The position numbers and the translations under genes are program-made. From the NCBI GenBank assembly GCA_038888155.1, contig JAWAJB010000011.1, positions 1-21,961 of the forward strand: a DNA stretch of 21,961 nucleotides, given 5' to 3'. The notes below the pieces were generated by a model that saw only the letters and a list, made by a program, of their open reading frames with translations, was not told the origin of the DNA and searched no databases. Origin of the DNA: Desulfurococcaceae archaeon (GTDB lineage: Archaea > Thermoproteota > Thermoprotei_A > Sulfolobales > Desulfurococcaceae). Below, piece by piece: positions 127-21,961 of the stretch. How positions within the stretch are numbered: the first letter of the stretch is position 1; each line of letters starts with the position of its first letter.

Positions 127-471
127 TTTTCAACTCATTCTTTATTGATACTTGTTAACTAGGTCTTCAAGGCTACTCTCAGGGCCCTCATCTTTCAATT
201 CATTCTTTATTGATACTTATCCCTGCTTCGCTAGTGATGGTGGCTTCAGCGTTACTTTCAATTCATTCTTTATTAATACAAAAGGGCGGTGCAGAGTTTC
301 ATTGACTTGATGTATGATGCTTTCAATTCATTCTTTATTGATACGCTAACTTCTTCTACAGCTTTGTCAATATCAAACCTCAAGCCTTTCAATTCATTCT
401 TTATTGATACGCTTTAACCTTTACCCATTCTCCCTTATTCAGATAACTTTCAATTCATTCTTTATTGATAC
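127..471 (-). CRISPR. CRISPR array 1: 6 repeats, 5 spacers (36-41 nt); repeat CTTTCAATTCATTCTTTATTGATAC on plus, GTATCAATAAAGAATGAATTGAAAG on minus
   Basis: Repeats start at 127 (degenerate, TTTTCAACTC...), 192, 255 (one G>A change), 320, 386 and 447. Orientation is minus because the degenerate copy is at the left, the conserved leader is at the right, and the minus-strand repeat ends in the canonical ATTGAAAG tag. Confidence 0.97.
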
Positions 472-6000: not shown

Positions 6001-6294
6001 GCTTTTTTTAACAACATCCTCAACGACGCTCTCAATTTTTTGAGGAATCTCTAGGCCTCTCTGCGATATCGCGTTTAATACCCACCTAGTTGTTTCATCG
6101 TGCCTTATCTCCAAAGCTTTAGCCATTAATGTGTTGATATCCATCTTTGTGAGCTCCGATAAAGCTCTTAAGGCTTCCTCAACGTCTTTACCTTTTTCTT
6201 TTCCGCTTGCTGCTCTGCGCAGAAACCTCTGTATAGGTTTACCGATATCGTGTAACAATCCGTAAAGTGAGGCTAGCGCGACTTCTCTACGCAT
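3076..6294 (-). CDS. cas10: Type III-A large subunit Cas10/Csm1 (HD nuclease plus palm cyclase), about 1072 aa
   Basis: HD domain LLHDIGK and SDRLSSSER; PDISLYAHSKL; palm1 DVNQIQEFI...LLRGRS; palm2 KMDCDKLG and YAGGDD. Preferred start is ATG 6294 with a GGTGGTG RBS upstream (the track starts at 6306). Confidence 0.96.
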   Translation of the reverse strand: MRREVALASLYGLLHDIGKPIQRFLRRAASGKEKGKDVEEALRALSELTKMDINTLMAKALEIRHDETTRWVLNAISQRGLEIPQKIESVVEDVVKKSDRLSSSERRFGEPFEFSKKAYDVMKNLISMENKKIEYEPENTPLLTPTWILALSGYLETVGLKTNIDKTTEPGRLADTEETSEKDIVENFKVALKKYALAVESCIADPCNEEELKRTIKDLLVEKARIFEDSIWLPVSTISSENLVNLKARKIEDAVELSSYSLVVKEFADKLNIVLDLYNIKEHGLKIGLIDTIEELIKYTCLLVPSAIYSTLAPDISLYAHSKLSAAYASSLVSNEGKLRLLVLDVNQIQEFISRARRAGGASRLLRGRSLLVELAQDALASYILYLFGGMPRSNLLTIEGGSIDIVIPDLPDLNRRVEKLRSVSYKLSKHEFNGRLGFTVAYSKAFDVDSTDFIKSLVREEGGFHDILDSLALNLGIAKVTRIAKEPLYIDARDIVGFDALTNESVSKEDIEKNGLIVDSGNMDYVGEMAGPDTLREEEIISGATHLSLVAGSLARNMVAVIGLYFYEEGEDALPSPATDIIESLTNAVTKSLCRGNATRRALLCSIQHGISIGFVPLSNAGALYTLVSLKQPDQLNPLSPEYSKSVWSAVSIMLKVLTDIIKESREIFSKPRNIYARMDIKTINTFVEFIPSRHSEILDDLRQTVEKLLSLGIDVSFSSFPFNSHHSISKTSDSGEFRLKSLDEYDLIVIGKMDCDKLGDVKRLASYSPSRLVTISELINLTIVAKSYLKIFEKHELFEDVIALYAGGDDAVFYGDWIPVISYIMSVYKDVRSVLPHLTFSVGITIDKSDLPIILLYEDVVDLLRQAKKVKASAALKLSSPTLIPVKVDGKKLYKLIDLVPLEKPSRHYPWPADITTCWNLECLARMLEQIYLYNKGLLTREAAEQIEKLLMYRRDLYILSMIGAKLAQIVQRAEAEKDHVDLEKIMIEMLPIEIEYAYVWARRYKNLIELNDVFQKINAINNECTIKLLVYPDDIVGSREKLHDALRALLASKTTLDHILLATRLATTS

Positions 6295-7427
6295 AGCTCG
6301 CACCACCCTAGACCCAATAAGTTATTCTGTGGGCCGACGAGTTTTATGGTAGAGTCATTCCACTTTCTATGAAGCCTTTTACTCATGGATTTCTTTAATT
6401 CCTCATACATTTGTGGATACTGTTTTTTTATGTATAAATCAATGGTTTTCGCTATATGCCCCGTCATAAAACCAATTCTAGAAATTACACAGTTCTGTTG
6501 GGAGGCTCCACAGTACTTTTCTTTGAAACTCTGAAGAACTCTTTTGTAACCACGTAATTCATTGATATCTTTTATCAGAGATAACTCATGGTCAACTAAG
6601 TCGCATCCGAAGGTTCTCAATGATGCTGTGAGGTCTATGCTCGCTAACTCATTTAGCTTATCGATAATGCCTAATAGGTCTTGTCTGCTTTTTTCCGGGG
6701 CCTCGAAGCTAGGTCTGGCTTTCACGATTTTAATCTCGTATCTCAGGTTCCCGCCGACAAGCACTATGCCCGCCATGCTCGACAATCTAGTTAATTTAGT
6801 TACTTCTCTTCGTTTAGACAAATTATACACTGTGAGCCATTCAAGCGAGTAACTCAACGATTCCTTGGCAAGAGGGTCCGATACATGTAGGTTCTGCAAC
6901 ATATCAACTTCCCCTTTCTGCTTTTCTAGTCGTTTTCGCTTGAAGAAGTACTGTTCCAAGGGTGTGCTAGCATTAATTAGTTTCTCCACTTTCAGACTAT
7001 CTATTGTTTTCTTGATCATCTCAGAAAAACGTTCACGCTTTATATCGTTAGACGTAAGCATGTAGTACATTAAGGCTGTTCTTATGTATCCCTTCAACGT
7101 GGACCCAGGAACAACATGCTCCTGTGGGAGCTTTACTCTTTTTCCCGCATCCAGCTCTCCAATATTGTTCATTGATGTTAGTTTGCATGGAAGAGCGTCT
7201 CTGTGCTTCATAAAAATTTCGTGTATTTTATGCTCCTCCGTGTTTGCTATCTCCAAAACCACTTGGCTGGGCAGATTCTCCATGTCTATCACACAAACGT
7301 CTTTTTGTCTTATTAAGACATCTCTCCCAACAACCCCCTCCGTGCCACCAAGAACAATTGTAGGCGTCAGTGGCTTGAGCGATGCTCTGTACTTCTTTAA
7401 GGTAAGATGAGCTAGACTATTATCCAT
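6273..7427 (-). CDS. csm5: Type III-A RAMP Csm5, 384 aa
   Basis: LKPLTPTIVLGG, VPGSTLKGYIRTAL, LHVSD, RIGFMTG..KT and C-terminal LGLGWCEL; position after csm4. Confidence 0.9.
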   Translation of the reverse strand: MDNSLAHLTLKKYRASLKPLTPTIVLGGTEGVVGRDVLIRQKDVCVIDMENLPSQVVLEIANTEEHKIHEIFMKHRDALPCKLTSMNNIGELDAGKRVKLPQEHVVPGSTLKGYIRTALMYYMLTSNDIKRERFSEMIKKTIDSLKVEKLINASTPLEQYFFKRKRLEKQKGEVDMLQNLHVSDPLAKESLSYSLEWLTVYNLSKRREVTKLTRLSSMAGIVLVGGNLRYEIKIVKARPSFEAPEKSRQDLLGIIDKLNELASIDLTASLRTFGCDLVDHELSLIKDINELRGYKRVLQSFKEKYCGASQQNCVISRIGFMTGHIAKTIDLYIKKQYPQMYEELKKSMSKRLHRKWNDSTIKLVGPQNNLLGLGWCELCVEKSR

Positions 7428-8490
7428 GAAGCGTCACCGGGTTGAATACAATGGCGGGCTCATAGTTCATTCCTTCTAGTCTTGGAAGAGTTATCACTAG
7501 GAACGGTCTGTTAGTGTGGCTTGAGAAGTAGGCGAGGCTGCCTACGTCTAGTAAACGTAGGAGGGGGAGCCAATAATTGTTGTATGGTCCCCCGCTTATC
7601 CCCTCCAAGATTCTCTGCGTGCCGTAGGTCAGCTCAGGATTTATGCCAGTGTACTGACCTGCGTAGGGCGGATAAGAGCCAAGGAGATAGGCGTATCCTT
7701 TTCTCCAGCTAGTATTGCTTCTCAATACTTCCTCGTCTCTCTCTGAGACTTTAATCTTCATTAACCTAAACCTACCGAAGCCCCTGCTTTTATACCCCCC
7801 GATACCTATGTCGCCGAAAACCTTGAGCATTTCTGTCGCATGCTCTAGTAGTGACTCGCTATGTGAGGCCAGGGCAACCCAGAAAGGGGATTTGGCCCTT
7901 ATCCCATCAACCCTATAGACGTCGGCCGCGCCTGTGACTCTATCTATTCTTGAGTTATTCATTACAATTCTTTCATAGTACCTCTCTTTCTTGATGCAAA
8001 CTTCTCTGCAGTCTGAATCATCGGCACACACTATATAGTTATCCATAATTGTCTTAAGCATGACGCTATCTATGGTTTCATGCGTTGTTCTCCCGCGGCA
8101 CTCGTATACAATGCTTCTTCCAAACAGTTTGCTGAGTAACGGTGAGCCTTGCTTGTTAACGCATTTCTCAACGAAGTTTAAGAGCGTCTTTATAGCCGGC
8201 AGGGTAAACCACTCGGGGAGAGCCTTTTTAGCGCCAGGGGCTATTGGCACTACGGGTCTGCGTACAAGAAGCTTGGCTGATTCTCCACAAACATGAATTG
8301 GTAAGAGGGCTGTGGCGCTTATCTCCCCTGTTATAATACTCTGAATTAACTCTTTATTCCCCGTCATAGATGACGCTTCAATCAATCCTCTGAGGATTGT
8401 TGTGTGGTCAATTATCTCCTCGCTTCTCGACCATCCAACGTGGTAGCCCAGGCTAAACTCTATCCCCGTGACCTTAATGCTCCAGGCCAT
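7420..8490 (-). CDS. csm4: Type III-A RAMP Csm4 (Cas5 group), 356 aa
   Basis: YHVG...IDHTTILRGL, ISATALLP, NSRIDRVTG and G-rich loop GIGGYKSRGFGRF; lies between csm3 and csm5. Confidence 0.88.
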   Translation of the reverse strand: MAWSIKVTGIEFSLGYHVGWSRSEEIIDHTTILRGLIEASSMTGNKELIQSIITGEISATALLPIHVCGESAKLLVRRPVVPIAPGAKKALPEWFTLPAIKTLLNFVEKCVNKQGSPLLSKLFGRSIVYECRGRTTHETIDSVMLKTIMDNYIVCADDSDCREVCIKKERYYERIVMNNSRIDRVTGAADVYRVDGIRAKSPFWVALASHSESLLEHATEMLKVFGDIGIGGYKSRGFGRFRLMKIKVSERDEEVLRSNTSWRKGYAYLLGSYPPYAGQYTGINPELTYGTQRILEGISGGPYNNYWLPLLRLLDVGSLAYFSSHTNRPFLVITLPRLEGMNYEPAIVFNPVTLHG

Positions 8491-8492
8491 AT

Positions 8493-9467
8493 TTACGTAC
8501 CACTAGGTTTCGAATCTTCGCTGAATAATTTACTAGTTATATCATTTGCTATTTCATCTAGCTTGCTCCTGAGATCCTCCAGGTTGCTCAGCTTGGCTAT
8601 AGTTGGTTGCTTAACAACTGATATTCCATCTTGTGTTTTGTTTATCTTGAAAAGTTCGATTACTATGTCTTCAAACCCCACTCTACCATATCCTCTCGAG
8701 CCAGAGGAGCCTAGATAGGTGTCCTCTACGAGCTTCAGGCCATTAGCGAATGTCTCCAGGTATTTCTTTAGGTGATTCCTATCTACATCGAATATAAGCA
8801 TTGTCACTGTACCTTCAAACTCCGCGCCGGGCTTTACTCTCGGGAAGGTTCTTGGTTCAGCGGCTGAGGTTATTCTGTCAATTCTGTTCTCTGATTTTTC
8901 CTCTAGGAAATCCGCTATGCTTTTGGCCTTAAGCTTCTCGACCGTTTCTTTTGATGGGTAGAAATCATCGAACAATAGCCTGGTGGGAGCTAGGTTTGAG
9001 AATAACTCTTTTAGTTTCTGCTCTGCATTATCGGTTTTACCTAGATGTTCCTTTATTTGTGAATAATTCGCGGCTGCCCATCCGAAAAGGTCATCTATTG
9101 GGCATCTCTCAACGACGTCACTGTAGAAGTCATTGCTGTTCATTAACTTTGTTCCCCTCACGTGTTGCCAGATTTTTTGGTCTTGGTCAGCAGTGTAGAG
9201 CTTTTTGCCATAGGCAATTTCCAGAAGAGACCTGATGCGGCCCTTGAGGCTTGAGCCCGGTATGTAGGGGACCTCGAGTTCTATTTCCTCGTTATTAATG
9301 AGGTATTTCCTGCTTGTTACGATGGGGTATTGGTCAGCTCCACCTATCTTAAAAGCTTGTGCTTGGGCTGGCATTCTTATCAACAGACCTGTTTTTGTAG
9401 TTATCTTCATTGTTATTTTTAAGTAGCCTTTTAATTCACGCTTGAAAGATAGAGAGCTTTGCACCAT
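8493..9467 (-). CDS. csm3: Type III-A backbone RNase Csm3 (Cas7 group), 324 aa
   Basis: TGLLI...IGGADQYP (catalytic Asp position retained), PYIPGSSLKGRIRSLLE, LFG, RLLFDD, EKSENRIDRIT.A.PR and YLGSSGSRGYG. Confidence 0.95.
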   Translation of the reverse strand: MVQSSLSFKRELKGYLKITMKITTKTGLLIRMPAQAQAFKIGGADQYPIVTSRKYLINNEEIELEVPYIPGSSLKGRIRSLLEIAYGKKLYTADQDQKIWQHVRGTKLMNSNDFYSDVVERCPIDDLFGWAAANYSQIKEHLGKTDNAEQKLKELFSNLAPTRLLFDDFYPSKETVEKLKAKSIADFLEEKSENRIDRITSAAEPRTFPRVKPGAEFEGTVTMLIFDVDRNHLKKYLETFANGLKLVEDTYLGSSGSRGYGRVGFEDIVIELFKINKTQDGISVVKQPTIAKLSNLEDLRSKLDEIANDITSKLFSEDSKPSGT

Positions 9468-9470
9468 GTT

Positions 9471-9950: not shown

Positions 9951-10082
9951 TAAGAATGTACCTCTAACTATGATTGCTCGAACTTTTATTTAAAACATTA
10001 TGTTACTTAGAAAACATCATTCGATGTTTCGTGGTTACTATTTTTACTTTTAGCACTAAATATTTATTTAGGCTAATGGGCG
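9951..10082. promoter_or_regulatory. Divergent promoter region between the csm operon and the orphan ORF
   Basis: Minus-strand TTTTAAATAAAA (about 9984-9995) upstream of csm2; plus-strand TATTTATTTA (10061-10070); palindrome AAACATC-ATTC-GATGTTT (10012-10029). Confidence 0.6.
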
Positions 10083-10592
10083 TTGCCGATGGTCTTGATG
10101 CTCAGGGCTTCCATCGGCGTCATTGACAAGAGGGTTATGGGTAAGCCTAAAGAGGGCATGCTAACTTCGGCATGCCAGGTAGCCTGTTATATTTATAGGG
10201 ACAATAAGCTCGCTGAGGTTTGGCTTAAGTGCTCCTCAATCAATGATTTCTACTTATCTTTGGAGCAGCTTGTCTTGATAGGGATTGTTGTGGAGAAGGT
10301 AGGTTTTCTGAATGGCTTAATCTGTTCATTCAAGGGTCTTGAGCACATAGATGCTCTGACCGCGCTTCAGTCAGACCAGCTGGTCGGGGGCGAACTAATC
10401 CTGCGTTACTACCTTGAAGACAAGTTCTCACATCTATTCCAAAAGCTACATGAAGAGAAGCTCGTTGAGAAGGCATTGATTCACCCCACAAAAAAACTGG
10501 TAAAGATTAGGTTGCTCGGAGAGGCGAAGTCAAGCGTTTTCTTCGATAGCTGTGTAAGAATCCTGAAACCAATCAAGCTCCCACCAATCTAA
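10083..10592 (+). CDS. Hypothetical protein (about 164-169 aa), not recognisable as a known Cas family
   Basis: Only long ORF in the gap, with no competing ORF in the track; TATA-like box upstream; globular protein-like composition. Start could be TTG 10083, ATG 10089 or ATG 10098. Confidence 0.72.
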   Translation: MPMVLMLRASIGVIDKRVMGKPKEGMLTSACQVACYIYRDNKLAEVWLKCSSINDFYLSLEQLVLIGIVVEKVGFLNGLICSFKGLEHIDALTALQSDQLVGGELILRYYLEDKFSHLFQKLHEEKLVEKALIHPTKKLVKIRLLGEAKSSVFFDSCVRILKPIKLPPI

Positions 10593-10766: not shown

Positions 10767-11562
10767 CTTTCAATTCATTCTTTATTGATACAGGAAAAAA
10801 GGTCTGCAAGAGATGTGGAGAATAGAAACAGTCTTTCAATTCATTCTTTATTGATACTTAAGTTTTGCATAGGGGACGATCACAGGAGAATAACGCACTT
10901 TCAATTCATTCTTTATTGATACACGGATTAACGCTTGTTCTAGTATTGGGAAAAGAGTATCTTTCAATTCATTCTTTATTGATACAAGTGTAAATCCAGA
11001 GTTCGACAATTGCAGAGTTACGTATCTTTCAATTCATTCTTTATTGATACGTGTGGGAGTGTGGTGGGAGAAGGGAGAGAGAGGGCTTTCAATTCATTCT
11101 TTATTGATACAACAGCGAGAGTAACGCTTAAAGCCAAGTTGACGACGAGCTTTCAATTCATTCTTTATTGATACCCTTTTTAAGTCCTTGGTTCTAATTT
11201 TTAATGGCATTCCCTTTCAATTCATTCTTTATTGATACAACCAAAAATATAATGCTCCCGCCCCTTGGCTCTTCGCCATCTTTCAATTCATTCTTTATTG
11301 ATACTTTATTGATGTAGTGAATTTCTTTAAGACTCTTAAGGAAACTTTCAATTCATTCTTTATTGATACGAGCATGTAGTCCCCCGTTGGATGAACCGTG
11401 AAGACCCAGCTTTCAATTCATTCTTTATTGATACGCTCGTCCCTCAATATCTTCTTGAAGCTATTGCTCTTTGCTTTCAATTCATTCTTTATTGATACGA
11501 AGCCTGCTTTAACGAGTTTTTTTGCTAGTGGCTTTGGCTTTCAATTCATTCTTTATTGATAC
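10767..11562 (-). CRISPR. CRISPR array 2: 13 identical C-type repeats, 12 spacers (35-41 nt)
   Basis: Repeats at 10767, 10833, 10898, 10961, 11026, 11086, 11150, 11214, 11280, 11345, 11410, 11474 and 11538; leader at the right. Confidence 0.98.
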
Positions 11563-11713
11563 CGAGGTCTCATGGGATAGTTCCTCGGCTCCTTCCCCTA
11601 TTTTTTCTCTTCCTCTGCGTATTTAACTGTTGCGCTATTGAGGAGTGAAGGTTGGGCAGCACAGAATCATCGAGTCACTCCTCAAAGTATTAAAACTTTC
11701 TTTTGGTTTATTT
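11563..11713 (-). promoter_or_regulatory. CRISPR leader 2 (TATA-like 11620-11626; inverted repeat 11638-11648 / 11675-11685)
   Basis: 146/151 identical to 21493-21643 and homologous to leader 1. Confidence 0.9.
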
Positions 11714-11731
11714 CTTATTGGCTGGTTCATC

Positions 11732-12604
11732 ATGGGTTCTTTGACTATTGTTGATTTTGGGCTTAGGGCTGTTTCTGGCGGTGGTTTGCCTTGGTTTGTG
11801 GGTCATGAGTGTAGGGGTGCTTTTCTGGGCCTTGTTTCCGGGCTTGACTCCTCCTTGGCTCATGTTCTTCATGAGGGTGTTGATGGTAGAAGCGTTTTTT
11901 CTATTAAGCCTTTACTTTTCGTGTCCGGCTTCACAGTGGTTTTTCCTGATAAGAAGATGAGCAGGTTTCCCGTTGATGGGAACGTTGTTTTTGAGCCAGG
12001 AGCTAGGGCTGGGATAAGCGTTGTTTTGTTAAATGAGGAGCTTGCAGGGAGGCTTGTCCCCAAGCTGATCGGGTACCCGCAGCACCTTAAGCTGGTCGTC
12101 AAGAACTACGAGTTTATGGTGGAGAGCTTGCGCCTCTCGTTCATCAACCCAGCGAGCATCATGAGCACTGATGAATCTGTGGATGAGCTAGACGTGGAGT
12201 TTGTCACGCCCACGTACTTTAACCCGCTGAGAGGCGACATGAGCTACAAGGTTCTTTACCCGGACCCCACATTACTTTTCGCGTCACTCATATCGATAGC
12301 GCATCAACTAACCGGCGCTAGCTATCCAAAGCCCGAGGAATTAGCTAGTCATGTCTACGTGAGCGGGCTTGACATAAAAACACCGTATGTAAGGGAAGTC
12401 ACCAAGGAAGCGCCTACAGGCTTCGTTGGCTGGGCCAAGATAAGGTTCAGAAAGACAACTCCGCTTGAAACAAGAAAGCTCGTGCTGGGATTACTAAAAC
12501 TAGGCGAAATAACAAACGTAGGGGGGAACAGAAGTGGGGGATACGGAGTAATAAAACTGAAAACCCAAAAAGAAAAACAAGAAAAACAAAGCACACAGAG
12601 CTGA
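11732..12604 (+). CDS. cas6: Cas6 crRNA-processing endoribonuclease, about 290 aa
   Basis: RGAFL, LAHVLHE...FSIKPL, FVTPTYF, LYPDPTLLF.SL, GFVGW and the terminal G-rich loop GEITNVGGNRSGGYG. Start moved to ATG 11732 because the track's 11645 start lies inside the leader. Confidence 0.93.
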   Translation: MGSLTIVDFGLRAVSGGGLPWFVGHECRGAFLGLVSGLDSSLAHVLHEGVDGRSVFSIKPLLFVSGFTVVFPDKKMSRFPVDGNVVFEPGARAGISVVLLNEELAGRLVPKLIGYPQHLKLVVKNYEFMVESLRLSFINPASIMSTDESVDELDVEFVTPTYFNPLRGDMSYKVLYPDPTLLFASLISIAHQLTGASYPKPEELASHVYVSGLDIKTPYVREVTKEAPTGFVGWAKIRFRKTTPLETRKLVLGLLKLGEITNVGGNRSGGYGVIKLKTQKEKQEKQSTQS

Positions 12605-13412: not shown

Positions 13413-13973
13413 TTGTTGCAAGAAGAATCATTACATGAAGAAAAAGAGCTAGGTAAAGTTCTAGCTGTGCTCTACGTAGAGTTGGGGGATCCCTCTTACA
13501 TTGACAAGCTTGCACAATCCTCCTCAAAGGACCTAGTTCTTTTTAGAATAGGGGAAGCTCTGCGCGACTATCACTCCTTGGTTAACAAGGGATTTGAGAA
13601 TGAATCTGTCGCCGAGTTGGCAAGGAGCATAGATTTTCAAAGAGTAGAAAAATGCCTCAGTAAAATAAAAGCTATAGATAGCGTCAAGGAGCTACGCGAG
13701 ACCATCTCTCTTGCTACGTCCTATGCATTGGCTGAAGCAGCAAGGCTAAGGTCAAGGGAAGCATATCTTACTGCAAAAAGCGTTTTAACGTATCTAAGCC
13801 AAAAAGGATTGCTTAAGGACCATAAATCGGCTCAAGATATCAGAAAAATTGTGGAGGAAAACATCGATCAAGTCTCAAGAGAACTGATTATTCCTAAAGA
13901 AAGAATCCTTGATGTATTGAAAGATGAGAAATTGATTGAAAGGCTATTATCCAAAATGGAGGTGAAAGAGTGA
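13413..13973 (+). CDS. csa5: Type I-A small subunit Csa5 (Cas11) with C-terminal extension, 186 aa
   Basis: LAVLY....SYIDKLAQSSSKDLVLF.I.EALRDY.SL is Csa5-like; first gene before cas7. Confidence 0.82.
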   Translation: MLQEESLHEEKELGKVLAVLYVELGDPSYIDKLAQSSSKDLVLFRIGEALRDYHSLVNKGFENESVAELARSIDFQRVEKCLSKIKAIDSVKELRETISLATSYALAEAARLRSREAYLTAKSVLTYLSQKGLLKDHKSAQDIRKIVEENIDQVSRELIIPKERILDVLKDEKLIERLLSKMEVKE

Positions 13974-14998
13974 TGGTGTACGTCTCCGTCAGAGGCAGAA
14001 TATGGCTTCAGACAGAAGCAGCAAACATGGTTGAAAGCATAGGCAATTATGTTAAGCACCGGAAAGTCCCTGTACTAGTCAAAGAGAAGGATGCTTACAT
14101 TACGTTTTTCGTGCCAGCCATATCCGGTGAAAGCATAGCACATACTTATCAAGTTATCTTAGCGGAAGAACTGAAGAAGAAGAAAAGCAAGGTATGCAAG
14201 TACTGCGAAAAAGGCATTTTCCTAAAGAGTACAAACGCGGAAATCTATAAAGAAGTAACCGGGAAAGAGCCCCCTAAGTCATCTACATCAAAAGAAAACA
14301 AACAGGATGACCTTTCTCGAATAGAGGAGATAGAAAGATCCATAATAGAGAGCTGCGGCGTAGAGGACATAGGTGGTTTCCTCTTTGCGGAGAAGGGGGT
14401 AAACGTAAAAAGGACGTCCAGCTTCCAAACCGGTTATATGATACCAGTCAGAGAAGTCTTGGGAGCAGTTAACATAGAACCACAGCTCCACAGCAGATAC
14501 GCCCTAGGAACAAAATTCGTGAGCGTGACCACAGGAGCAGCGGGCCAAATGATATATTACGTCGAAGTCTCCTCAGCCCTATTCAGCTTCGCCTTCGACC
14601 TTGATACAAAGTACATCGGCAAGTACACATTCCATGTTGAAAAATATGGCGAAAATGTAATTAAAAGCGAAGAAATTGTGAAAAGAGCTGAATCAGCGTT
14701 AGAAGCACTAAAGAGACTTCTGCTTGACTTCCCTGTAGGAGCTAAGAGAACAAGGTTTAACCCCTCCGACCTGAGATGGGAGTCCATAGGCATCGCTGTT
14801 TCAGATGATGTATGGACCATGCCTTCAAGCTTCACCAAGGATTACCTTGAGAGAGCTTACGCGAAAAAGAATAAGGTGAGCTATAACACGGTGATTCATG
14901 CTTACTCTGAAGATAAGTGTGTTGCTGATAAATGCTATGGAACACCAGAAGAAGCAATACTTGGTTCCGTGGCTGATGCTGAAGGGAGAATTAAATGA
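13970..14998 (+). CDS. cas7: Type I-A Cas7/Csa2, about 342 aa
   Basis: EAANMVESIGNYVKHRKVP, VPAISGESIAHTYQ, CKYC, EDIGGFL, VKRTS, QLHSRY, QMIYYVE.SS and GAKRTRFNP; GGAGGTGA RBS (start GTG 13970 or ATG 13973). Confidence 0.96.
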   Translation: MMVYVSVRGRIWLQTEAANMVESIGNYVKHRKVPVLVKEKDAYITFFVPAISGESIAHTYQVILAEELKKKKSKVCKYCEKGIFLKSTNAEIYKEVTGKEPPKSSTSKENKQDDLSRIEEIERSIIESCGVEDIGGFLFAEKGVNVKRTSSFQTGYMIPVREVLGAVNIEPQLHSRYALGTKFVSVTTGAAGQMIYYVEVSSALFSFAFDLDTKYIGKYTFHVEKYGENVIKSEEIVKRAESALEALKRLLLDFPVGAKRTRFNPSDLRWESIGIAVSDDVWTMPSSFTKDYLERAYAKKNKVSYNTVIHAYSEDKCVADKCYGTPEEAILGSVADAEGRIK

Positions 14999-15783
14999 AG
15001 GGATTTATCTTTGACTTAGAGTTCATGTGGGGATTTCAAGCAAGAGTAGTAGGCATGTCTAAGACCTCCCCATCCTTTCCTGTCCCTCCCCCGACAACCG
15101 TGTTGGGGGCTATTGCTGAAGCTTACGCGAGGAGGAAAGGCTTTAGCGAGGGCAGGGCATCAACGCTTAACGAGCTTGCGAGGGAGATTTTAGCTCTAGG
15201 TTATAAACCGCTGAATGCGATTACTCTACAGTTCCAGGACGTGAACAGGATTGTGAGTGTTAGGACTGCGGGTGAAGTAAGGTATCCTTCCGTGAAGGAC
15301 CCCTACGGGTCTTTCGACGCACCTGCTAGAGGCAAAACCGTGACTTCCTCGCTCAACGAAAAACCTCCTACAATGAGGGTCTTCGCAGTAGTCAAGGACA
15401 CGCTAGACATCACCTCAGACGACATATGGAGAGTTAAGAGGCTTGGAAGCAAGGAGAGCATGGTATCTGTCGTGGAGGTCATCGAAGGTGTTCCAGAAGT
15501 CATATGTGAAGGTGAAGTGGAAACGGACTACTCATTGCTCCTCACGCCGGAGTTGGAGAGCAGTATTATTGATAGAGAAGGCAACTTTATTGAGTTAGAA
15601 TTCGTCCCAATAACTAGCCTAGTTTCAGGAGACTCCCCTGCTAGGCTATACTTGAATTATAAGGTAGTTAGGCACTTAATTCCAGTACCTCTTGTAAGGA
15701 GGGGTCGACTTATAGTTAAGTTGCCTCCTGGCTACGCAGGCTATAAGATAAATAATGAGGTGGTGATAGGCCTTAGTGAGTGA
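14995..15783 (+). CDS. cas5: Type I-A Cas5, 262 aa
   Basis: WGFQARVVGMSKTSPSFPVPPPTTVLGAIAE, FDAPARG and RLGSKES.VSV; ATGA overlap with cas7. Confidence 0.95.
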   Translation: MKGFIFDLEFMWGFQARVVGMSKTSPSFPVPPPTTVLGAIAEAYARRKGFSEGRASTLNELAREILALGYKPLNAITLQFQDVNRIVSVRTAGEVRYPSVKDPYGSFDAPARGKTVTSSLNEKPPTMRVFAVVKDTLDITSDDIWRVKRLGSKESMVSVVEVIEGVPEVICEGEVETDYSLLLTPELESSIIDREGNFIELEFVPITSLVSGDSPARLYLNYKVVRHLIPVPLVRRGRLIVKLPPGYAGYKINNEVVIGLSE

Positions 15784-16882
15784 TGACACTCCGTTATTGG
15801 AAATACAAACACCTCCTGACGGGACGTTGCTATCATCCATGCTCTACGAGGGGTTGCTTAGAATTAAAAGTAAATGCATGACGCAACTCACTAAGGAATG
15901 CTTAAAAAGTGGCTTGCTCGAGATTCTGGGAGATAAGAATATTGACTTCCGATTCACAGGCAATGACGTGAGGTACGTCAAGTTTAAAAGATTAGATAGC
16001 GACTTCATAGAGTTTCTATTCAAAAACATTGAAATGCTTGATTTAAGGATCAGAGTAGAGTTGGTCCGTGAGAAAAGCGAGATGAAGGTAAGGGTTAGTA
16101 GCCCCTCATTTTCCAGAGCACAAAAAGAGTACTCGTTTCAGATAATGAAGGTTGATAGGTATAAGGGAATATCCAGCATAGAATTACAAACAATAGATGA
16201 GGAGATCACGACTTATGCTGACATGAATGGATTACTTATGTTCTTTTACGGTCTCACGTCATCTTATGTCACAACTGTCAGGACTGAGGGTAATATCGAT
16301 CATTACTTCTTATTCTTCGATATAGAGACTCTGCTGAAGGATGTGTTGAGAGGGAACCCGACTAGTTGGCTGGATATTAAAGACCATGTAGTTTTAGCTA
16401 TTAGGGACGTGATCAGGAGGTTTGGCGAGTTTAATGATGAAGCAATAACTCTGGTAGTCTTACTTAACACTTATGTCTTGGAATCTCTAAAGAAACTAAA
16501 TGTTCAGAATGTCGGCTTCAGATTAGTCAAAGTGCGAGGGGAGGGCTGGACATATAAGGTTTACGTTGACATGCCTATAGGCGTTTACATCAAGCAGAAA
16601 CTGTATGAGGATATGGAGTTGGTTAATGAACTTAACAAAGTTCTCAGCGTCTTACTCGAGCCTGCAGGCAGATTTGTTAAAGGAAGGGATAAATATGGCG
16701 ACGGTTACCACGCTTTTAAGGCAATTAGGTACTTGTACAACTACATAGCTTCCGGAAGCCCCACATACTTATTCAACATGTATAGGGAGGTTCTTGAGGC
16801 CTATAATTCAGCTAATTGTAATCGAGCCCCTTATGCCGAGGAGTACTTAAGATGCTTTTTGCGGAGCCATATAAAAAGGTAG
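15776..16882 (+). CDS. cas8a: Type I-A large subunit Cas8a (Cas8a2/Csa4-like), 368 aa
   Basis: Position between cas5 and cas3'; motifs TPP, FTGND, FQIMKVDRY.G, GLTSSYVT, YFLFF and EG.TYKVY. Call rests partly on synteny. Confidence 0.8.
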   Translation: MSDDTPLLEIQTPPDGTLLSSMLYEGLLRIKSKCMTQLTKECLKSGLLEILGDKNIDFRFTGNDVRYVKFKRLDSDFIEFLFKNIEMLDLRIRVELVREKSEMKVRVSSPSFSRAQKEYSFQIMKVDRYKGISSIELQTIDEEITTYADMNGLLMFFYGLTSSYVTTVRTEGNIDHYFLFFDIETLLKDVLRGNPTSWLDIKDHVVLAIRDVIRRFGEFNDEAITLVVLLNTYVLESLKKLNVQNVGFRLVKVRGEGWTYKVYVDMPIGVYIKQKLYEDMELVNELNKVLSVLLEPAGRFVKGRDKYGDGYHAFKAIRYLYNYIASGSPTYLFNMYREVLEAYNSANCNRAPYAEEYLRCFLRSHIKR

Positions 16883-18417
16883 AAAAGTATCTTAGAGAAA
16901 GAGGGCGCGGTAAATACGAAGAAAGACCTTACCTAGATGAGCTAATTAATGTTTTGTCGAGTGATTCGAGCAACTACCTTGTAACCGCACCTACGGGTTA
17001 CGGCAAAACAGCTATTTCAATGAGCATAGCTCTGGGTAGCTTCAACGAGTTTTCTAAGTCAATAATCGCATATCCACTTAGATCCTTGATTGAAGAGCAA
17101 GTAGGCATGTTTAGAAAACTCTTTGATTTCGTTGGGATAGGCAAAGACTTTGTCGGCGCTAGGTATATGGGCAGACACGAGTCACCATATCTAATTCACC
17201 CTGTTACGCTGACCACCATCGACACACTATCTTTAACGGCGCTTGGCCTCTCACCGGAGGATATGTACAGTGTTTTGAAAGGTCTCTCATCCGAAGACTG
17301 GTTCGAGAACCTAGGGCACTACCTTTTCTCATGGTCCTCGGTGTTCTCCTCGTCAAATATAATCTTAGACGAGGTTCACTCGATGTACGATACGAGTAAA
17401 TCACTGAGTTTCTTAGTAGCTCTAATGGATCTATGTAGTTCCACGGATGTAAGACTACTATTAATGACTGCGACCTTACCTAGGAGCTTTGAGCAAGCGC
17501 TAAGTGGCAGAGTAAAAGTAAGGAGGTATACTAGGGATGATGACCCTAAGTTCTTCGATGAACGTCTCCACAAGAATTACCGTGTTGAGCTTCTAGGCTT
17601 GAAGGGCTACAACAAGTTTGAGATTATTAAAGAAATCTTGCTGAAAAATGTGTTTAGCAAAGCCTTAGTAATTTTCAATACAGTTGAGGACGCAGTTAAT
17701 TTCTATAGGTTGCTTGATGGCAAAAAAATTCTTATTCATTCACGGTTCTCCGTGGAGGATAGAGAAGCAAAACTACATGAATTAAGGGCCCTGGAGGATT
17801 CTCCTGGCAAGATGGTGCTCGTGAGCACACAGGCTGTTGAGGCAGGAGTTGATTTTTCTTCTGACCTGATAATAACGGAAATAGCTCCTCCCATATCTCT
17901 TGTACAGAGATTCGGCAGATTTTTGAGACGCGATGAGAAGTCTGGTCGCGTGTTTGTTTGGTTTGAGGAGGATGGCTTCTATAATGATACATACAAGGTC
18001 TATAACGCTGATTTAGTGAAGCGTACGATAGATTTCTTGAGTGGCAATAATGATGTGAACTTGCATGTGGGTTACGATGATTTTCTTGACCATGTTTACG
18101 TTGATCCTCCTACGGTCGACAATAGGCTCATTAACAAGATTAGAAACGTTTTCTGGGACCTAATCGAGCCATCTAAATCGGCGCTAGAACTGCTAATAAA
18201 GCTTGAGGGTAGTTTTGTTAGGGACGGATACCTTGTTACCGTGGTTACCGATGACAACGTCGAAGTCAACGTTAACTATGAGTATCTATTGAAGCTTAAA
18301 AGGAAGGGCTTGTGCGTTGAGTGTACTGAAGACAAGAGGGAAGTCTTGCTCAGGTCGCTGAGGGGACATAAGTTCTATGTAAAGATCAGATATGATAAAG
18401 AGGTGGGGCTTGTCTAG
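16852..18417 (+). CDS. cas3: Cas3' SF2 helicase (no HD domain), 521 aa
   Basis: Walker A APTGYGKT, YPLRSL, Walker B ILDEVH, MTAT, IFNTV, HSRF, STQAVEAGVD and QRFGR. Confidence 0.96.
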   Translation: MLFAEPYKKVEKYLRERGRGKYEERPYLDELINVLSSDSSNYLVTAPTGYGKTAISMSIALGSFNEFSKSIIAYPLRSLIEEQVGMFRKLFDFVGIGKDFVGARYMGRHESPYLIHPVTLTTIDTLSLTALGLSPEDMYSVLKGLSSEDWFENLGHYLFSWSSVFSSSNIILDEVHSMYDTSKSLSFLVALMDLCSSTDVRLLLMTATLPRSFEQALSGRVKVRRYTRDDDPKFFDERLHKNYRVELLGLKGYNKFEIIKEILLKNVFSKALVIFNTVEDAVNFYRLLDGKKILIHSRFSVEDREAKLHELRALEDSPGKMVLVSTQAVEAGVDFSSDLIITEIAPPISLVQRFGRFLRRDEKSGRVFVWFEEDGFYNDTYKVYNADLVKRTIDFLSGNNDVNLHVGYDDFLDHVYVDPPTVDNRLINKIRNVFWDLIEPSKSALELLIKLEGSFVRDGYLVTVVTDDNVEVNVNYEYLLKLKRKGLCVECTEDKREVLLRSLRGHKFYVKIRYDKEVGLV

Positions 18418-18419
18418 GC

Positions 18420-19151
18420 ATGGTAATATACAGCTTTTTTAATGAAGGTGTAAAGGAGAGGCTGAGGGATCATGTGCTATACGCATTAGAAACTTTTAGC
18501 GAGACAAGCAGGTTGGTTATATTCGGTAATAAGCTTAACAGGGATTTCTACTTGATGCTTAAGTACTCTATTATGTTGCATGATTTCGGTAAGGTAATTT
18601 TTAATCAGTATAAGCGAACAGAAGTTCAGAGAATGAGTTTTGAGGGGCATGAGATTATTTCGGCGTGGTTTGCCAACGAGTATCTAAGGAGGATGAAGGG
18701 GTTGATAAGCCCGGATGAGAGAGCCATGATTGTCCTTTCAATTTTATTGCATCATCACCCAATGAGTCTCCGTGAGAGAGCCGATAGGCTTGAGGAGGCC
18801 CTAAGCAAAAAAGCCAAGAGTGTAGGAGAGCTGGTAATCAATAAGGAAACACTTGAGGGCTTCTACGCTGAACTAGACGGCATAATAGAGCCGGTATTCA
18901 TCAATGTTGACAAATCGGTAAAAGAAATTCTTGAAGAAACAGTCGGTTACTCTGGCATCCAACATGAAAGCCTGTCAAGAGAATACTGGAAGAATATATG
19001 GATGAATGGAACACCTAACAAAAGAAAAACTTTTCTACTCTTGACCCAGGGGCTGGTGGCAGCCGACTACAATGCTGCCAGCAAAGTCAGAGGAGAAGGA
19101 ATCTCGGAATTCGCTAAGACAATATCGACATACTTAAAGTACTGGACTTAG
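18420..19151 (+). CDS. cas3'': Cas3'' stand-alone HD nuclease, 243 aa
   Basis: ERLRDHV, LHDFGK, SFEGHEIISA, LLHHHPM and LVAADY; a split cas3 is typical of type I-A. Confidence 0.95.
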   Translation: MVIYSFFNEGVKERLRDHVLYALETFSETSRLVIFGNKLNRDFYLMLKYSIMLHDFGKVIFNQYKRTEVQRMSFEGHEIISAWFANEYLRRMKGLISPDERAMIVLSILLHHHPMSLRERADRLEEALSKKAKSVGELVINKETLEGFYAELDGIIEPVFINVDKSVKEILEETVGYSGIQHESLSREYWKNIWMNGTPNKRKTFLLLTQGLVAADYNAASKVRGEGISEFAKTISTYLKYWT

Positions 19152-19259
19152 AAACTGACTAGAGACAAATCAAACGATTTTTCTTCCTATTATAAAAACT
19201 CCAAGCACCTACAATCGAATAAACCAAGAAGTCTTAACTCTCAAAGCAACATGTTCCAT

Positions 19260-21492
19260 ATCTCAATTCATTATTTATTGATACCGAAATAGCGGATATG
19301 CCTTATCATCAAATTTATTGGTCACTTTCAATTCATTCTTTATTGATACAGTAATGAGCGAGTTTGCTGATGTACTGGAAGACTACATACTTTCAATTCA
19401 TTCTTTATTGATACACGGTAAGCTGGCTAAGGCGCCGAGGAGCTACGGGCTGAACGCTTTCAATTCATTCTTTATTGATACAGAATGTACTTCTTGAGCA
19501 GAGCTATGATGGAGCCATACTCCTCTTTCAATTCATTCTTTATTGATACATCTTCGGGACTAACCTCTTCGTCCTTTATGCCTGTGTTCCCTTTCAATTC
19601 ATTCTTTATTGATACTTTAAAGTTTGGGATAAAGGAATCACAAAAACGCTAAGTGCTTTCAATTCATTCTTTATTGATACTTATTTACTTGTGGTGTGAA
19701 TGAAGCTTAAAGACGACCCTCTTTCAATTCATTCTTTATTGATACTTGCCCTGGATTTACGTTTACGAAATACGCTTTTCCTTCTTTCAATTCATTCTTT
19801 ATTGATACGCCTTTAGCTTGAGCAGAGTAATAGCGAGGCAGATAAACTTTCAATTCATTCTTTATTGATACAATAGTGAGACCCCCAAACCAACCGCGAT
19901 GGAGAAAGCTATGCTTTCAATTCATTCTTTATTGATACATATATTTCTTAGTGATAAGCATTGATAATAACCCTTAGCAAATCTTTCAATTCATTCTTTA
20001 TTGATACCTTAGCTCCCCTCCCTCAAGATACCTCGCCCCCCTCCTACTTTCAATTCATTCTTTATTGATACTTTAAACAATATTACCGTGATGGTATTCC
20101 TCAACTGGCTAGTTTCAATTCATTCTTTATTGATACGCTGGGCGTTTGTCAAAATCTATGAGAACTATATTGGTTTCAATTCATTCTTTATTGATACACT
20201 TCTGGGACTCTCCTCTTGGGAGAGAGGTTTACAGGTTTCAATTCATTCTTTATTGATACCCCATCATCATCGAAGAATTTTTTGATTTCATTGATGTGTT
20301 TCAATTCATTCTTTATTGATACATGTACAGGCTCTGGTTGGGAGCAATGGTCACCGATCCCGGTTTCAATTCATTCTTTATTGATACCCAATCCAGCCAC
20401 AGACACAGCCACAGCCATCAGTGTTTCAATTCATTCTTTATTGATACATAAGGGTAACGAGGAATAACGATAACTATACATATACCGTGTTTCAATTCAT
20501 TCTTTATTGATACGCTTATCAAGAGATTCGTGAATACGGCTTCGGCTTCGGTCTGGTTTCAATTCATTCTTTATTGATACCTAGCCTGGGGGCTGGTAGA
20601 GAGCCAAATGCTTCGCGTTTCAATTCATTCTTTATTGATACTTAAACGTAATCGTCTCTAAACTCATAAGTAATCACCTGAGGTTTCAATTCATTCTTTA
20701 TTGATACGAAGCTTCAGCAACAACAGTTGAGGTATTCGCCACAGTGTTTCAATTCATTCTTTATTGATACGAGACGTCTTTGCGGGGGTGATCCTTCGCT
20801 AGGAAGCCGAGTTTCAATTCATTCTTTATTGATACAAGAGAGTACCTAGGGAAGGTAATAGTGATAGCAGACGCAGTTTCAATTCATTCTTTATTGATAC
20901 ATCACCTCGTGCTTCTCGCTCGACGTGAAGCATTTGTGTTTCAATTCATTCTTTATTGATACAAAGCAAGGGAACAACCATATACGTTCCCTATGAGCTA
21001 AGTTTCAATTCATTCTTTATTGATACCCAGATGAAGTCAACAGCTTGATTACAAGTGTAGGTAAACTGAGTTTCAATTCATTCTTTATTGATACTAGTCC
21101 ATAACTCTCTCCACACACCTTTTATCCTTCTTGCATGTTTCAATTCATTCTTTATTGATACACGCAATGAACATTTTGGAGCACGACGAGAGAGCAGAGG
21201 TAGTTTCAATTCATTCTTTATTGATACTACGGAGCCACCCAGTAGGTGGGAGTACATGGCTCGGGTCGGTTTCAATTCATTCTTTATTGATACTTCATCC
21301 TGAAACAGGATTAAAAATCAAAACCAAAAATTTGGTTTCAATTCATTCTTTATTGATACTTGTTGCCCGGGGCATCCTCTACAAAGTGGTTGGGTGGGTC
21401 TTGTTTCAATTCATTCTTTATTGATACCTGGCTCTGGGCGGGGATCCACTTCACTCCATACCTTCCAGTTTCAATTCATTCTTTATTGATAC
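19260..21492 (-). CRISPR. CRISPR array 3: 35 repeats, 34 spacers (35-44 nt); 1 degenerate, 12 C-type and 22 G-type repeats
   Basis: Degenerate terminal repeat ATCTCAATTCATTATTTATTGATAC at 19260; CTTTCAAT-type repeats starting at 19325 through 20047; GTTTCAAT-type repeats starting at 20112 through 21468; leader at the right. Confidence 0.98.
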
Positions 21493-21643
21493 CGAGGTCT
21501 CATGGGATAGTTCCTCGGCTCCTTCCCCTATTTTTTCTCTTCCTCTGCGTATTTAACTGTTGCGCTATTGAGGAGTGATTGTTGAGCAGCCCGGAATCAT
21601 CGAGTCACTCCTCAAAGTATTAAAACTTTCTTTTGGTTTATTT
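21493..21643 (-). promoter_or_regulatory. CRISPR leader 3 (TATA-like 21550-21556; inverted repeat 21568-21578 / 21605-21615)
   Basis: Near-identical to leader 2. Confidence 0.9.
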
Positions 21644-21685
21644 TTAAAATAACGATCGTTGAAAATATTAAGTAGGTGTTGAAAC

Positions 21686-21961
21686 TTGAGTTACGTTGCT
21701 CTTGTTATTTATGACATTAAAGACAACAGGCTTCGATTCGAGATTGCTAATTTTCTCAGACAAGTTGGGCTAAGCCGGATACAAAAAAGCGCATTTGCTG
21801 GCCCTATTAAGCCATCGCTTAGATCAGAAATAGAGGCTGGAATTAGGAGAATAGTGAAGGAGTGGGATAACTATAACATTCAGGTCTACGTCATGACAAG
21901 CGCTACTTACTCGAATAGGACTGTTATTTCATCTGGCTATATTATTGAGGATGACGATAAG
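21686..21961 (+). CDS. cas2: Cas2, 3'-truncated by the window edge and absent from the ORF track
   Basis: Manual translation from TTG 21686 (AGGTG RBS at 21674-21678) gives MSYVALVIYDIKDNRLRFEIANFLRQVGLSRIQKSAFAGPI..., with the hallmark YDI.D.R and GL.RIQKSAF.G motifs. No stop codon in 92 codons. Confidence 0.93.
   Translation, partial: MSYVALVIYDIKDNRLRFEIANFLRQVGLSRIQKSAFAGPIKPSLRSEIEAGIRRIVKEWDNYNIQVYVMTSATYSNRTVISSGYIIEDDDK

What the first reader, a model, noticed from the sequence alone, without database searches (positions are those of the whole stretch)
20047..20136. One-step repeat switch inside array 3 changes the crRNA 5' tag (AUUGAAAG to AUUGAAAC)
Seen: the 12 intact trailer-side repeats (19325-20071) and every intact repeat of arrays 1 and 2 begin CTTTCAAT. 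All 22 leader-side repeats from 20112 begin GTTTCAAT, with no interleaving. Established: new repeats are copied from the leader-proximal repeat, and the last 8 nt of the transcribed repeat form the crRNA tag used for effector loading and type III self/non-self discrimination. Inference: one mutation, or a recombination with a sister array, was propagated through about 21 later acquisitions. That gives an internal time stamp and shows this base is repeat-templated rather than PAM-derived. The cell would make two tag classes that might sort differently between Csm and Cascade or differ in Cas6 processing.
Basis: partly seen in the sequence, partly recalled or inferred. Interest (0 to 1): 0.7.

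Follow-up and report, generated by a model that had tools for sequence, protein, structure and literature searches.

The report
One-base repeat switch in CRISPR array
Partway along a CRISPR array of a hot-spring archaeon the last letter of the repeat changes once and stays changed in all newer units, which is a tidy example of a known way that repeat mutations are copied forward rather than a new kind of system.

Summary
Array 3 (19260-21492) has one degenerate trailer repeat, then 12 repeats starting CTTTCAAT (19325-20071), then 22 starting GTTTCAAT (20112-21492), with no interleaving. A conserved leader lies to the right of all three arrays. The arrays are therefore read on the minus strand, and the changed base is the last repeat base, giving the inferred crRNA tags AUUGAAAG and AUUGAAAC.

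The first bases of the spacers vary, so this base belongs to the repeat. It is copied with the repeat. This differs from E. coli I-E, where that base comes from the PAM and is not propagated (PMC3338789).

The G-type is real. Logan contigs from three runs of three different studies hold pieces of the G block, and an unrelated metagenome contig carries 11 G-type repeats. It is also rare. In 17 related arrays, 208 of 210 repeats keep C.

Open points: whether the change arose in place or came from a G-type array, and direct proof of the junction. No function was tested. Block-wise repeat variants are already described (PMC4869251, PMC3396285). This is a new member of a known kind, and interest is low to moderate.

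The parts
19260..19284 (-). Degenerate trailer-end repeat of array 3 (first base A, 2 mismatches in the core)
19325..20071 (-). C-type block: 12 exact repeats, CTTTCAAT... on the + strand and ...AUUGAAAG in the transcript, with their spacers. This is the older part of array 3.
   Evidence: Logan contigs 19846-19939 and 19915-20007 in run X1 have depth 49-51.
20047..20071 (-). Youngest C-type repeat. Its 31-mer (C + core + TTTAAA) also occurs at 19591.
20072..20111 (-). Junction spacer. It is the oldest spacer whose crRNA would carry the AUUGAAAC tag.
   Evidence: Covered without differences by the X1 contig 20048-20393.
20112..21492 (-). G-type block: 22 exact repeats, GTTTCAAT... on the + strand and ...AUUGAAAC in the transcript, with 21 spacers between them. 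This is the leader side of array 3.
   Evidence: Contigs in X1 (20048-20393, 20366-20841, 21139-21498), X2 (20140-20448, 20782-20962, 21265-21492) and X3 (20573-20981).
21493..21685 (-). Leader of array 3. It is conserved with the right flanks of arrays 1 and 2 and holds an 11-bp perfect inverted repeat at 21568-21578 / 21605-21615.
21686..21961 (+). cas2, cut off by the contig end
   Evidence: TIGR01573, E 1.3e-13
10767..11562 (-). Array 2: 13 repeats, all C-type. Its leader is nearly identical to that of array 3.
127..471 (-). Array 1: 6 repeats. Five are C-type and one is a degenerate trailer repeat.
11645..12604 (+). cas6-like gene, the presumed enzyme that makes the 8-nt tag
   Evidence: TIGR01877, E 4.6e-8, 33.7 bits, below the curated cut-off of 58.65
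13970..19151 (+). Type I-A interference genes: cas7/csa2, cas5a, an unassigned 368-aa ORF, cas3' and cas3''
3076..9467 (-). Type III (Csm-like) genes: cas10/csm1, csm5, csm4 and csm3

Best explanation
Array 3 is a Cas6-type CRISPR array read on the minus strand from a leader at 21493-21685. At one point in its history the last base of the leader-adjacent repeat changed from G to C in the transcript sense (C to G on the + strand). This is the base that touches the spacer and ends the 8-nt crRNA tag.

The change could have been a point mutation. It could also have been a one-base slip at the repeat-spacer cut when spacer 20072-20111 was integrated.

Each new acquisition separates the two strands of the leader-adjacent repeat and fills both in. 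Both daughter repeats therefore inherit the change, and all 21 later units carry it. Older units keep the old base.

So the base is templated by the repeat and is not supplied by the incoming spacer or its PAM. The adaptation machinery accepts the variant. Its effect on crRNA processing, loading and interference is probably small.

Shown here: the block structure, the orientation, that the base behaves as repeat, that G-type repeats exist in independent data, and that they are rare in the family.

Inferred: the copying mechanism, the 8-nt tag, an origin in place, and near-neutrality.
For: - There are 12 C-type then 22 G-type exact repeats with no interleaving. P = 3.6e-9 for such an order by chance.
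- The leader is on the right for all three arrays.
- The first three spacer bases next to the variable base differ from spacer to spacer in every block.
- cas2 lies next to the leader, and cas6, type I-A and type III genes are in the window.
- In run X1, contigs over the trailer flank, the C block and the G block have similar depth (63.5; 49-51; 48-59). One contig runs from the core of the last C-type repeat through the junction spacer and five G-type repeats.
- The break of that contig at 20048 is what a 31-mer graph should give if 20047 is C, because C + core + TTTAAA occurs twice in the array (19591 and 20047).
- Pieces of the G block occur in runs of three different studies (X1, X2, X3).
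- Literature: the leader-adjacent repeat is the one duplicated (PMC4872114 abstract; PMC3396285 passage). Propagated repeat mutations are described (PMC4869251 passages).
- In P. furiosus, Cas1-Cas2 tolerate a G/C exchange at the first and last repeat bases in vitro (PMC6698737 passage).
Against: - No listed contig or read shows bases 20047 and 20112 together, so the physical junction rests on the MAG assembly.
- The bin looks mixed. It has 2.42 Mb against 0.9-1.5 Mb in 16 genomes of the same genus, and 6.43% contamination.
- An independent contig (L014) has 11 G-type repeats with the identical 24-nt core, G-type even at its trailer end, and an unrelated flank. The allele has therefore moved between arrays at least once or arisen twice, which weakens the case for an origin in place here.
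- The tag is otherwise invariant in the family. In 17 other arrays 208 of 210 repeats have C, and the two exceptions are trailer-most repeats. That hints at selection on this base and argues against strict neutrality.
- No protospacer was found, so the PAM is unknown.
- No RNA data were examined.
Confidence: 0.55

Rival explanations
1. The G-type leader end was imported. Homologous recombination or gene conversion took place within a repeat between array 3 and a pre-existing G-type array of a sister strain or a mobile element. This replaced the leader-side part of array 3, and later acquisitions went on copying the G-type repeat. A crossover inside the 24-nt shared core gives exactly the junction seen.
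For: - A pure G-type array with the identical core exists (L014). All 11 of its repeats are G-type, including the trailer-most one. It shares none of the window's 51 spacers, and its flank has no match in this genome.
- One flank ORF matches a phage/virus protein family (phrog_13890, E 4e-7).
- Block mixing of repeat variants in crenarchaeal arrays has been ascribed to recombination or to copying from another array (PMC3396285 passage).
- Related arrays show several block switches (L026, L012, L016, L017).
Against: - The first 85 nt of the array 3 leader are identical to the array 2 leader of the same contig, so nothing looks foreign there.
- Spacer GC and length do not differ between the G block and the other spacers (0.468 against 0.434, permutation p = 0.24).
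- No G-type array was found in the 324 other genomes of the order. Seven of them have one copy each of the 14-mer, about the same as the reversed control pattern.
- No G-type array was found in viral contigs.
Confidence: 0.28
2. The junction is an assembly artefact. The contig joins the trailer part of one strain's C-type array to the leader part of another strain's G-type array through the shared repeat.
For: - The window is a contig of a metagenome bin that is larger than its relatives and has 6.43% contamination.
- Run X1 holds thousands of short contigs with this repeat (3245 laid, 3058 fitting more than one place), so many related arrays coexist there.
- The 31-mer at the junction repeat is duplicated within the array.
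- No listed contig spans both diagnostic bases.
Against: - Depth is even across the trailer flank, the C block and the G block in X1 (48-63.5).
- The contig 20048-20393 attaches the junction spacer to a repeat core on its left and stops exactly where the duplicated C-type 31-mer predicts.
- The repeat (25 nt) is much shorter than usual reads, so reads span whole repeat-spacer-repeat units. This last point is an inference, as the assembly method is not known to me.
Confidence: 0.1
3. The last repeat base is supplied by each incoming spacer, as in E. coli type I-E. The switch would then reflect a change in PAM selection, for example an exchanged Cas4 or Cas1.
For: - The precedent in E. coli I-E (PMC3338789).
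- The variable base sits at the repeat-spacer cut site.
Against: - The base is strictly uniform over 22 and over 12 units, while the adjoining spacer bases are diverse.
- Arrays 1 and 2 keep C at their leader-adjacent repeats although they share the leader type.
- In I-E such SNPs are sporadic and are not propagated (PMC3338789 passage).
Confidence: 0.02

Closest known systems
Propagated repeat mutations in CRISPR arrays, as handled by CRISPRDetect (PMC4869251; passages read)
   Same: A repeat change appears at one point and is carried by all repeats toward one end of the array. [quoted passage not shown] It also names the 3' motif ATTGAAA(N), found in 1070 arrays, so the last base is known to vary between arrays.
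   Different: Here the change is in that last base, inside an array family where it is otherwise constant, and it divides one array 12 to 22. The paper's example is in a supplementary figure that I could not see.
'DR mixing' in Pyrobaculum arrays (PMC3396285; passage read)
   Same: This is a crenarchaeal type I-A/III context in which single arrays hold blocks of different repeat variants, for example 8 and 5 repeats with different 5' motifs. The authors propose recombination, or copying of a leader-proximal repeat from another array.
   Different: Those variants differ in core or 5' motifs by several bases. Here there is a single base at the 3' (tag) end.
PAM-derived last repeat nucleotide in E. 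coli type I-E (PMC3338789; abstract and passages read)
   Same: It concerns the same position, the spacer-proximal last base of the repeat and last base of the crRNA handle.
   Different: In I-E the base comes from the PAM and a deviant base is not passed on to the next unit. Here the deviant base was passed on 21 times, so it is repeat-templated.
P. furiosus Cas1-Cas2 integration requirements (PMC6698737; passages read)
   Same: The repeat ends in ATTGAAAG. The first and last repeat bases are the two attack sites. [quoted passage not shown]
   Different: That was an in-vitro study in a euryarchaeon with a 30-nt repeat. The single-base mutants are in a supplementary figure that I could not see. 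Nothing was tested for this 25-nt repeat.

Membership tests
CRISPR array of the Cas6 / ATTGAAA(N) repeat kind (archaeal type I-A and type III context) | Regularly spaced identical direct repeats separated by unique spacers | tested here: met
   35 units in array 3 with spacers of 35-44 nt. No spacer is duplicated elsewhere in the genome.
CRISPR array of the Cas6 / ATTGAAA(N) repeat kind (archaeal type I-A and type III context) | A conserved leader on one side and a degenerate repeat at the other end | tested here: met
CRISPR array of the Cas6 / ATTGAAA(N) repeat kind (archaeal type I-A and type III context) | Adjacent cas genes (cas2, cas6, type I-A and type III effector genes) | tested here: met
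   The cas6, csm4 and cas10 hits are below the curated cut-offs but have E of 4.5e-9 or better.
CRISPR array of the Cas6 / ATTGAAA(N) repeat kind (archaeal type I-A and type III context) | The repeat ends in ATTGAAA(N) in the transcribed sense | tested here: met
   The reverse complement of the repeat ends ATTGAAAG or ATTGAAAC. The motif is as named in PMC4869251.
CRISPR array of the Cas6 / ATTGAAA(N) repeat kind (archaeal type I-A and type III context) | Cas6 cuts 8 nt before the repeat end, giving crRNAs with an 8-nt 5' tag | not testable with these tools
   No RNA run was examined. The tag is inferred from P. furiosus work (PMC4215187).
Propagated leader-proximal repeat mutation | Variant repeats are contiguous, reach the leader, and are absent from older units | tested here: met
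   (22 of 22 leader-side units are G, 12 of 12 older intact units are C); orientation
Propagated leader-proximal repeat mutation | Both blocks lie on one DNA molecule | tested here: inconclusive
   Depth is even and contig 20048-20393 fits, but no listed contig holds both 20047 and 20112.
Propagated leader-proximal repeat mutation | The variant arose in this array rather than being imported | tested here: inconclusive
   A pure G-type array exists elsewhere. The leader shows no foreign signature.
PAM-derived terminal repeat base (type I-E-like) | The terminal base follows each spacer's own PAM, and a deviant base is not inherited by the next unit | tested here: not met
   The deviant base was inherited through 21 further units. 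The protospacers needed for the direct test were not found.

The most novel reading that the evidence does not exclude
The G-type allele may not be neutral. It puts a G at the 5' end of the repeat on both attacked strands (GTATCAAT... on one strand, GTTTCAAT... on the other, 7 of 8 alike instead of 6 of 8). That could make the repeat-spacer site a better Cas1-Cas2 substrate. If so, the allele promotes its own copying. This would help to explain why the array that carries it is the longest (34 spacers against 12 and 5) and why the same allele fills a second, unrelated array (L014). A further possibility is that the changed tag base biases crRNA loading between the type III and type I-A complexes.
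Probability: 0.1. Interest if true: 0.6.

Novelty: new member of a known kind. Interest (0 to 1): 0.3.

Why it matters
The switch is a natural marker. It shows that in this archaeal adaptation system the last repeat base is copied from the repeat and not taken from the invader's PAM, which is the opposite of E. coli type I-E. It also splits the array into an older set of 12 spacers and a younger set of 22, which can date acquisitions in population studies.

The affected base ends the crRNA tag, and that tag is otherwise constant in this repeat family. The locus therefore offers a ready-made pair of substrates for asking whether tag position -1 matters for Cas6 cutting, for loading into type III and type I-A complexes, or for spacer integration. 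No functional difference is shown here, and as a phenomenon it is already described.

Tried and rejected
Protospacers and PAM. None of these searches gave a usable protospacer, so the PAM test could not be done.
- Spacers against the genome itself gave only one 26-nt match at 88%.
- Array 3 against 50,697 phage records gave only 30-nt matches at E = 4e-3 to Pseudomonas and Bordetella phages. I take these as chance.
- Array 3 against 72,556 plasmids gave no match.
- Two 22-nt spacer ends against viral contigs gave 0 and 0. I tried 2 of the 34 spacers of array 3 and then stopped.
- A candidate match of spacer 20008-20046 in G084 (E 3.1e-4) proved to be a C-rich low-complexity match with a 3-nt gap. 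I dropped it.

Repeat core in viral contigs: 0 matches.

RNA folding: both repeat variants give the same weak 5-bp hairpin (-0.9 kcal/mol, z about -0.4). This gives no argument for a processing difference.

Spacer GC and length on the two sides of the switch do not differ significantly.

Parts without cover in other runs are not used as evidence.
- X2 and X3 showed no contig over the spacers of the C block.
- X4 showed none over the G block.
- In X4 a reported joint 20007 to 21469 is only a repeat matched to one of many places. That contig is a C-type leader end with other spacers.
- The 'opposite strands' joint at 21615/21700 coincides with the leader's inverted repeat.

Pfam gave nothing for four unassigned window ORFs or for the three L014 flank ORFs.

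Literature. In the passages I saw of PMC4215187, only whole-tag changes, changes to the first two bases, and a 5' addition were tested. I found no test of tag position -1 alone. The search for AUUGAAAC/ATTGAAAC returned mostly primer sequences. I did not read the one CRISPR listing (PMC4832164). I have not shown that a tag-end switch like this one is absent from print.

Supplements are closed. Two supplementary figures may bear on these claims and were not seen: CRISPRDetect Additional file 1 Figure S7c, and Figure S9 of PMC6698737.

Full report
**What is in the sequence**

The window is the whole of contig C11 of a 134-contig, 2.42-Mb assembly. A script found 54 copies of a 25-nt repeat, grouped in three arrays.
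- Array 1 (127-471) has 6 units. The left-most is degenerate and the other five start with C.
- Array 2 (10767-11562) has 13 units, all starting with C.
- Array 3 has a degenerate unit at 19260-19284. It then has 12 exact units starting CTTTCAAT (19325-20071) and 22 exact units starting GTTTCAAT (20112-21492).

There is no interleaving. A random order would give this arrangement with probability 3.6e-9. The flagged span 20047-20136 is the last C-type repeat, a 40-nt spacer and the first G-type repeat.

**Orientation and context**

The sequence to the right of each array is conserved. Arrays 2 and 3 are identical for the first 85 nt after the repeat and similar for about 170 nt. Array 1 is similar for about 110 nt. 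The left flanks are unrelated, and the degenerate repeats are on the left. The leader is therefore on the right and the arrays are read on the minus strand.

In that sense the repeat is GUAUCAAUAAAGAAUGAAUUGAAA followed by G (old) or C (new). The changed base is the last repeat base and touches the spacer.

The surrounding genes are as follows.
- A CARF/ring-nuclease-like gene and csx1.
- cas10/csm1, csm5, csm4 and csm3.
- A cas6-like gene and csa3.
- cas7/csa2, cas5a, cas3' and cas3''.
- After the array 3 leader, cas2, which is cut by the contig end.

That the last 8 nt form the crRNA tag is inferred from work on P. furiosus (PMC4215187, passages). No RNA data were examined here.

**Is the base repeat or spacer?**

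In the transcript sense, the three spacer bases that follow the variable base differ from spacer to spacer in every block. The variable base itself is constant over 12 units and over 22 units. It therefore behaves as part of the repeat.

In E. coli type I-E the same position is supplied by the PAM, and a deviant base there is not passed to the next unit (PMC3338789, abstract and passages). Here the deviant base was passed on 21 times.

I could not make the direct test, because no protospacer was found. One candidate was rejected as low-complexity.

**Is the G-type real?**

I laid Logan contigs of four public runs on 19200-21700.

In X1, the best holder and possibly the source sample:
- Contigs cover 20048-20393, 20366-20841 and 21139-21498 without differences, at depth 48-59.
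- Contigs of the C block (19846-19939, 19915-20007) have depth 49-51.
- The trailer flank has depth 63.5.

In other studies:
- X2 holds 20140-20448, 20782-20962 and 21265-21492.
- X3 holds 20573-20981.
- X4 holds three consecutive C-block spacers (19783-20009). It also holds a leader joined to a C-type first repeat with other spacers.

So G-type repeats with these spacers are seen in runs of three different studies, although the best holder, X1, may be the sample the window was assembled from and is then not independent support.

The junction is only partly shown. The X1 contig 20048-20393 links the junction spacer to a repeat core on its left, but it starts one base after the diagnostic C. 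That break is expected if the base is C, because the 31-mer C + core + TTTAAA occurs twice in the array, at 19591 and 20047. Even depth argues against a join of two strains of different abundance. The assembly is nevertheless a bin that is larger than its relatives (0.9-1.5 Mb in 16 genomes of the genus) and has 6.43% contamination. I keep a chimera at about 10%.

**How unusual is the base change?**

A BLAST of array 3 against 325 genomes of the order gave matches in 46, including this one. From the fetched loci, together with those of the public scans, I extracted 18 non-duplicate related arrays with 221 repeats. Two further loci were dropped as duplicates.
- 208 repeats start with C.
- One starts with T and one with A. 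Both are trailer-most repeats.
- The 11 that start with G all belong to L014.

L014 was found by searching specifically for the G-type repeat, so it is not a fair sample. Without it, 208 of 210 repeats are C.

The first 14 nt of the G-type repeat occur 22 times in this genome. They occur once each in 7 of the 324 other genomes, about as often as the reversed control pattern. Of the five such places fetched, four are not repeats and one is a lone repeat-like unit.

The central part of the repeat, by contrast, varies a good deal between arrays, and block-wise switches there are common.
- L026 has four variants in successive blocks.
- L012, L016 and L017 have a different trailer-most repeat.

Block switches are thus ordinary in this family. 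A switch in the tag is not.

**The second G-type array**

A scan of metagenome contigs for the 25-nt G-type repeat found one 1366-nt contig, L014. Its features are these.
- It has 11 G-type repeats with the identical 24-nt core, including the unit at the trailer end.
- It shares none of the window's 51 spacers.
- Its flank has no match in this genome.
- One small flank ORF matches a virus protein family of unknown function (phrog_13890, E 4e-7).

The allele has therefore either moved between arrays at least once or arisen twice. This leaves the origin in array 3 open. It may be a change in place, by point mutation or by a one-base slip of the repeat-spacer cut when spacer 20072-20111 was taken up. 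It may instead be a replacement of the leader end by recombination with a G-type array. A crossover inside the shared core would leave the same junction.

The array 3 leader shows nothing foreign. The spacers on the two sides do not differ in GC or length (p = 0.24). I rate a change in place at about 0.55 and import at about 0.28. In both cases the block is explained by copying of the leader-adjacent repeat at each acquisition, and I rate that copying at about 0.85.

**Function**

Nothing here shows a functional difference. Both repeat RNAs fold into the same weak hairpin.

In P. furiosus the first and last repeat bases are the two sites attacked by Cas1-Cas2. Exchanging G and C at both did not significantly alter integration, and guanine is the preferred base at attack sites in several systems (PMC6698737, passages).

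In this window the new allele puts a G at the 5' end of the repeat on both strands. That could make it an equal or better integration substrate. I list this as the most novel reading not excluded (probability about 0.1).

The tag as a whole is needed for Cmr loading (PMC4215187, passages). In what I read, position -1 alone was not tested.

**Comparison with what is known, and verdict**

- Propagation of repeat mutations through later repeats is stated in the CRISPRDetect paper. That paper also treats ATTGAAA(N) as a repeat-end motif with a variable last base, found in 1070 arrays (PMC4869251, passages).
- Blocks of different repeats within one array, with recombination or copying from another array as the proposed causes, are described for Pyrobaculum (PMC3396285, passage).

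This case is a clean new example of that kind, with three particular points.
- It hits the last tag base.
- It shows repeat templating at the position that is PAM-derived in type I-E.
- It shows that the variant supports at least 21 further acquisitions here and fills an 11-repeat array elsewhere.

I rate it a new member of a known kind, with interest 0.3.

Noticed in passing
window 546-558/581-593, 11638-11648/11675-11685, 21568-21578/21605-21615: Each of the three leaders has a perfect 11-13-bp inverted repeat (TTGAGGAGTG.../...CACTCCTCAA) about 75 nt from the first repeat. The loops are variable, 22-26 nt long. In leader 1 the stem is longer and its 11th pair is G-C instead of A-T, which is a change on both sides. 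This may be a protein-binding or structural element of the leader. The 'opposite strands' joint of contigs at 21615/21700 coincides with it.
   Followed up: partly
whole assembly G000: The bin has 2.42 Mb and 6.43% contamination, while 16 genomes of the same genus have 0.9-1.5 Mb. Matches to array 3 are more frequent in another family of the order (f3, 17 of 52) than in the window's own genus (2 of 16). The contig may be mis-binned, or the locus may have been horizontally acquired.
   Followed up: no
G000 contigs C15 (about 6799-10160) and C21 (13594-14440): There is a second CRISPR repeat family, which also ends in ATTGAAAG. It has 52 copies on C15 and 14 on C21. The only Cas1 match of the assembly lies on C15 (4835-5641, minus strand). 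C15 has 35% GC against 41.6% for the window. No cas1 was found that continues the window's cut cas2.
   Followed up: partly
L026 (G229:C125), L012, L016, L017: Related arrays show block-wise repeat switches in the central part of the repeat. In L026 four variants follow one another in blocks of 1, 1, 5 and 4 toward the leader. In L012, L016 (+ strand) and L017 only the trailer-most repeat differs. The two ends of the repeat stay constant.
   Followed up: partly
L014 1-700: The flank of the independent G-type array holds small ORFs. One is a 71-aa ORF matching phrog_13890 (unknown function). Another is a 45-aa acidic, cysteine-rich ORF. A third ORF runs into the first repeat, and there is no degenerate terminal repeat. 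The array may sit on a mobile element.
   Followed up: partly
window 19591-19621 and 20047-20077: Two spacers of array 3 begin with the same six bases after a C-type repeat, so a 31-mer is duplicated inside the array. This is a built-in branch point for k = 31 assembly graphs, and it lies exactly at the junction repeat.
   Followed up: yes
window 19783-20009 in run X4: A run labelled as a groundwater metagenome holds three consecutive C-block spacers without differences. On their trailer side it has a different spacer. It also has a C-type leader end with other spacers. This points to spacer loss or recombination among related arrays in other places.
   Followed up: no
window 9471-9950, 10083-10592, 13413-13973, 15776-16882: Four ORFs inside the cas clusters have no NCBIfam or Pfam match. 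By position they could be the small type III subunit, an unknown gene, csa5 and cas8a. That assignment is inference only.
   Followed up: partly
window 21537, 21591, 21593: There are leader variants in other runs. X1 and X2 have a 1-nt deletion in a T run. X2 and X4 have C>A and G>A changes that match the array 2 version of the leader loop. This is consistent with exchange between leaders or with strain variation.
   Followed up: no
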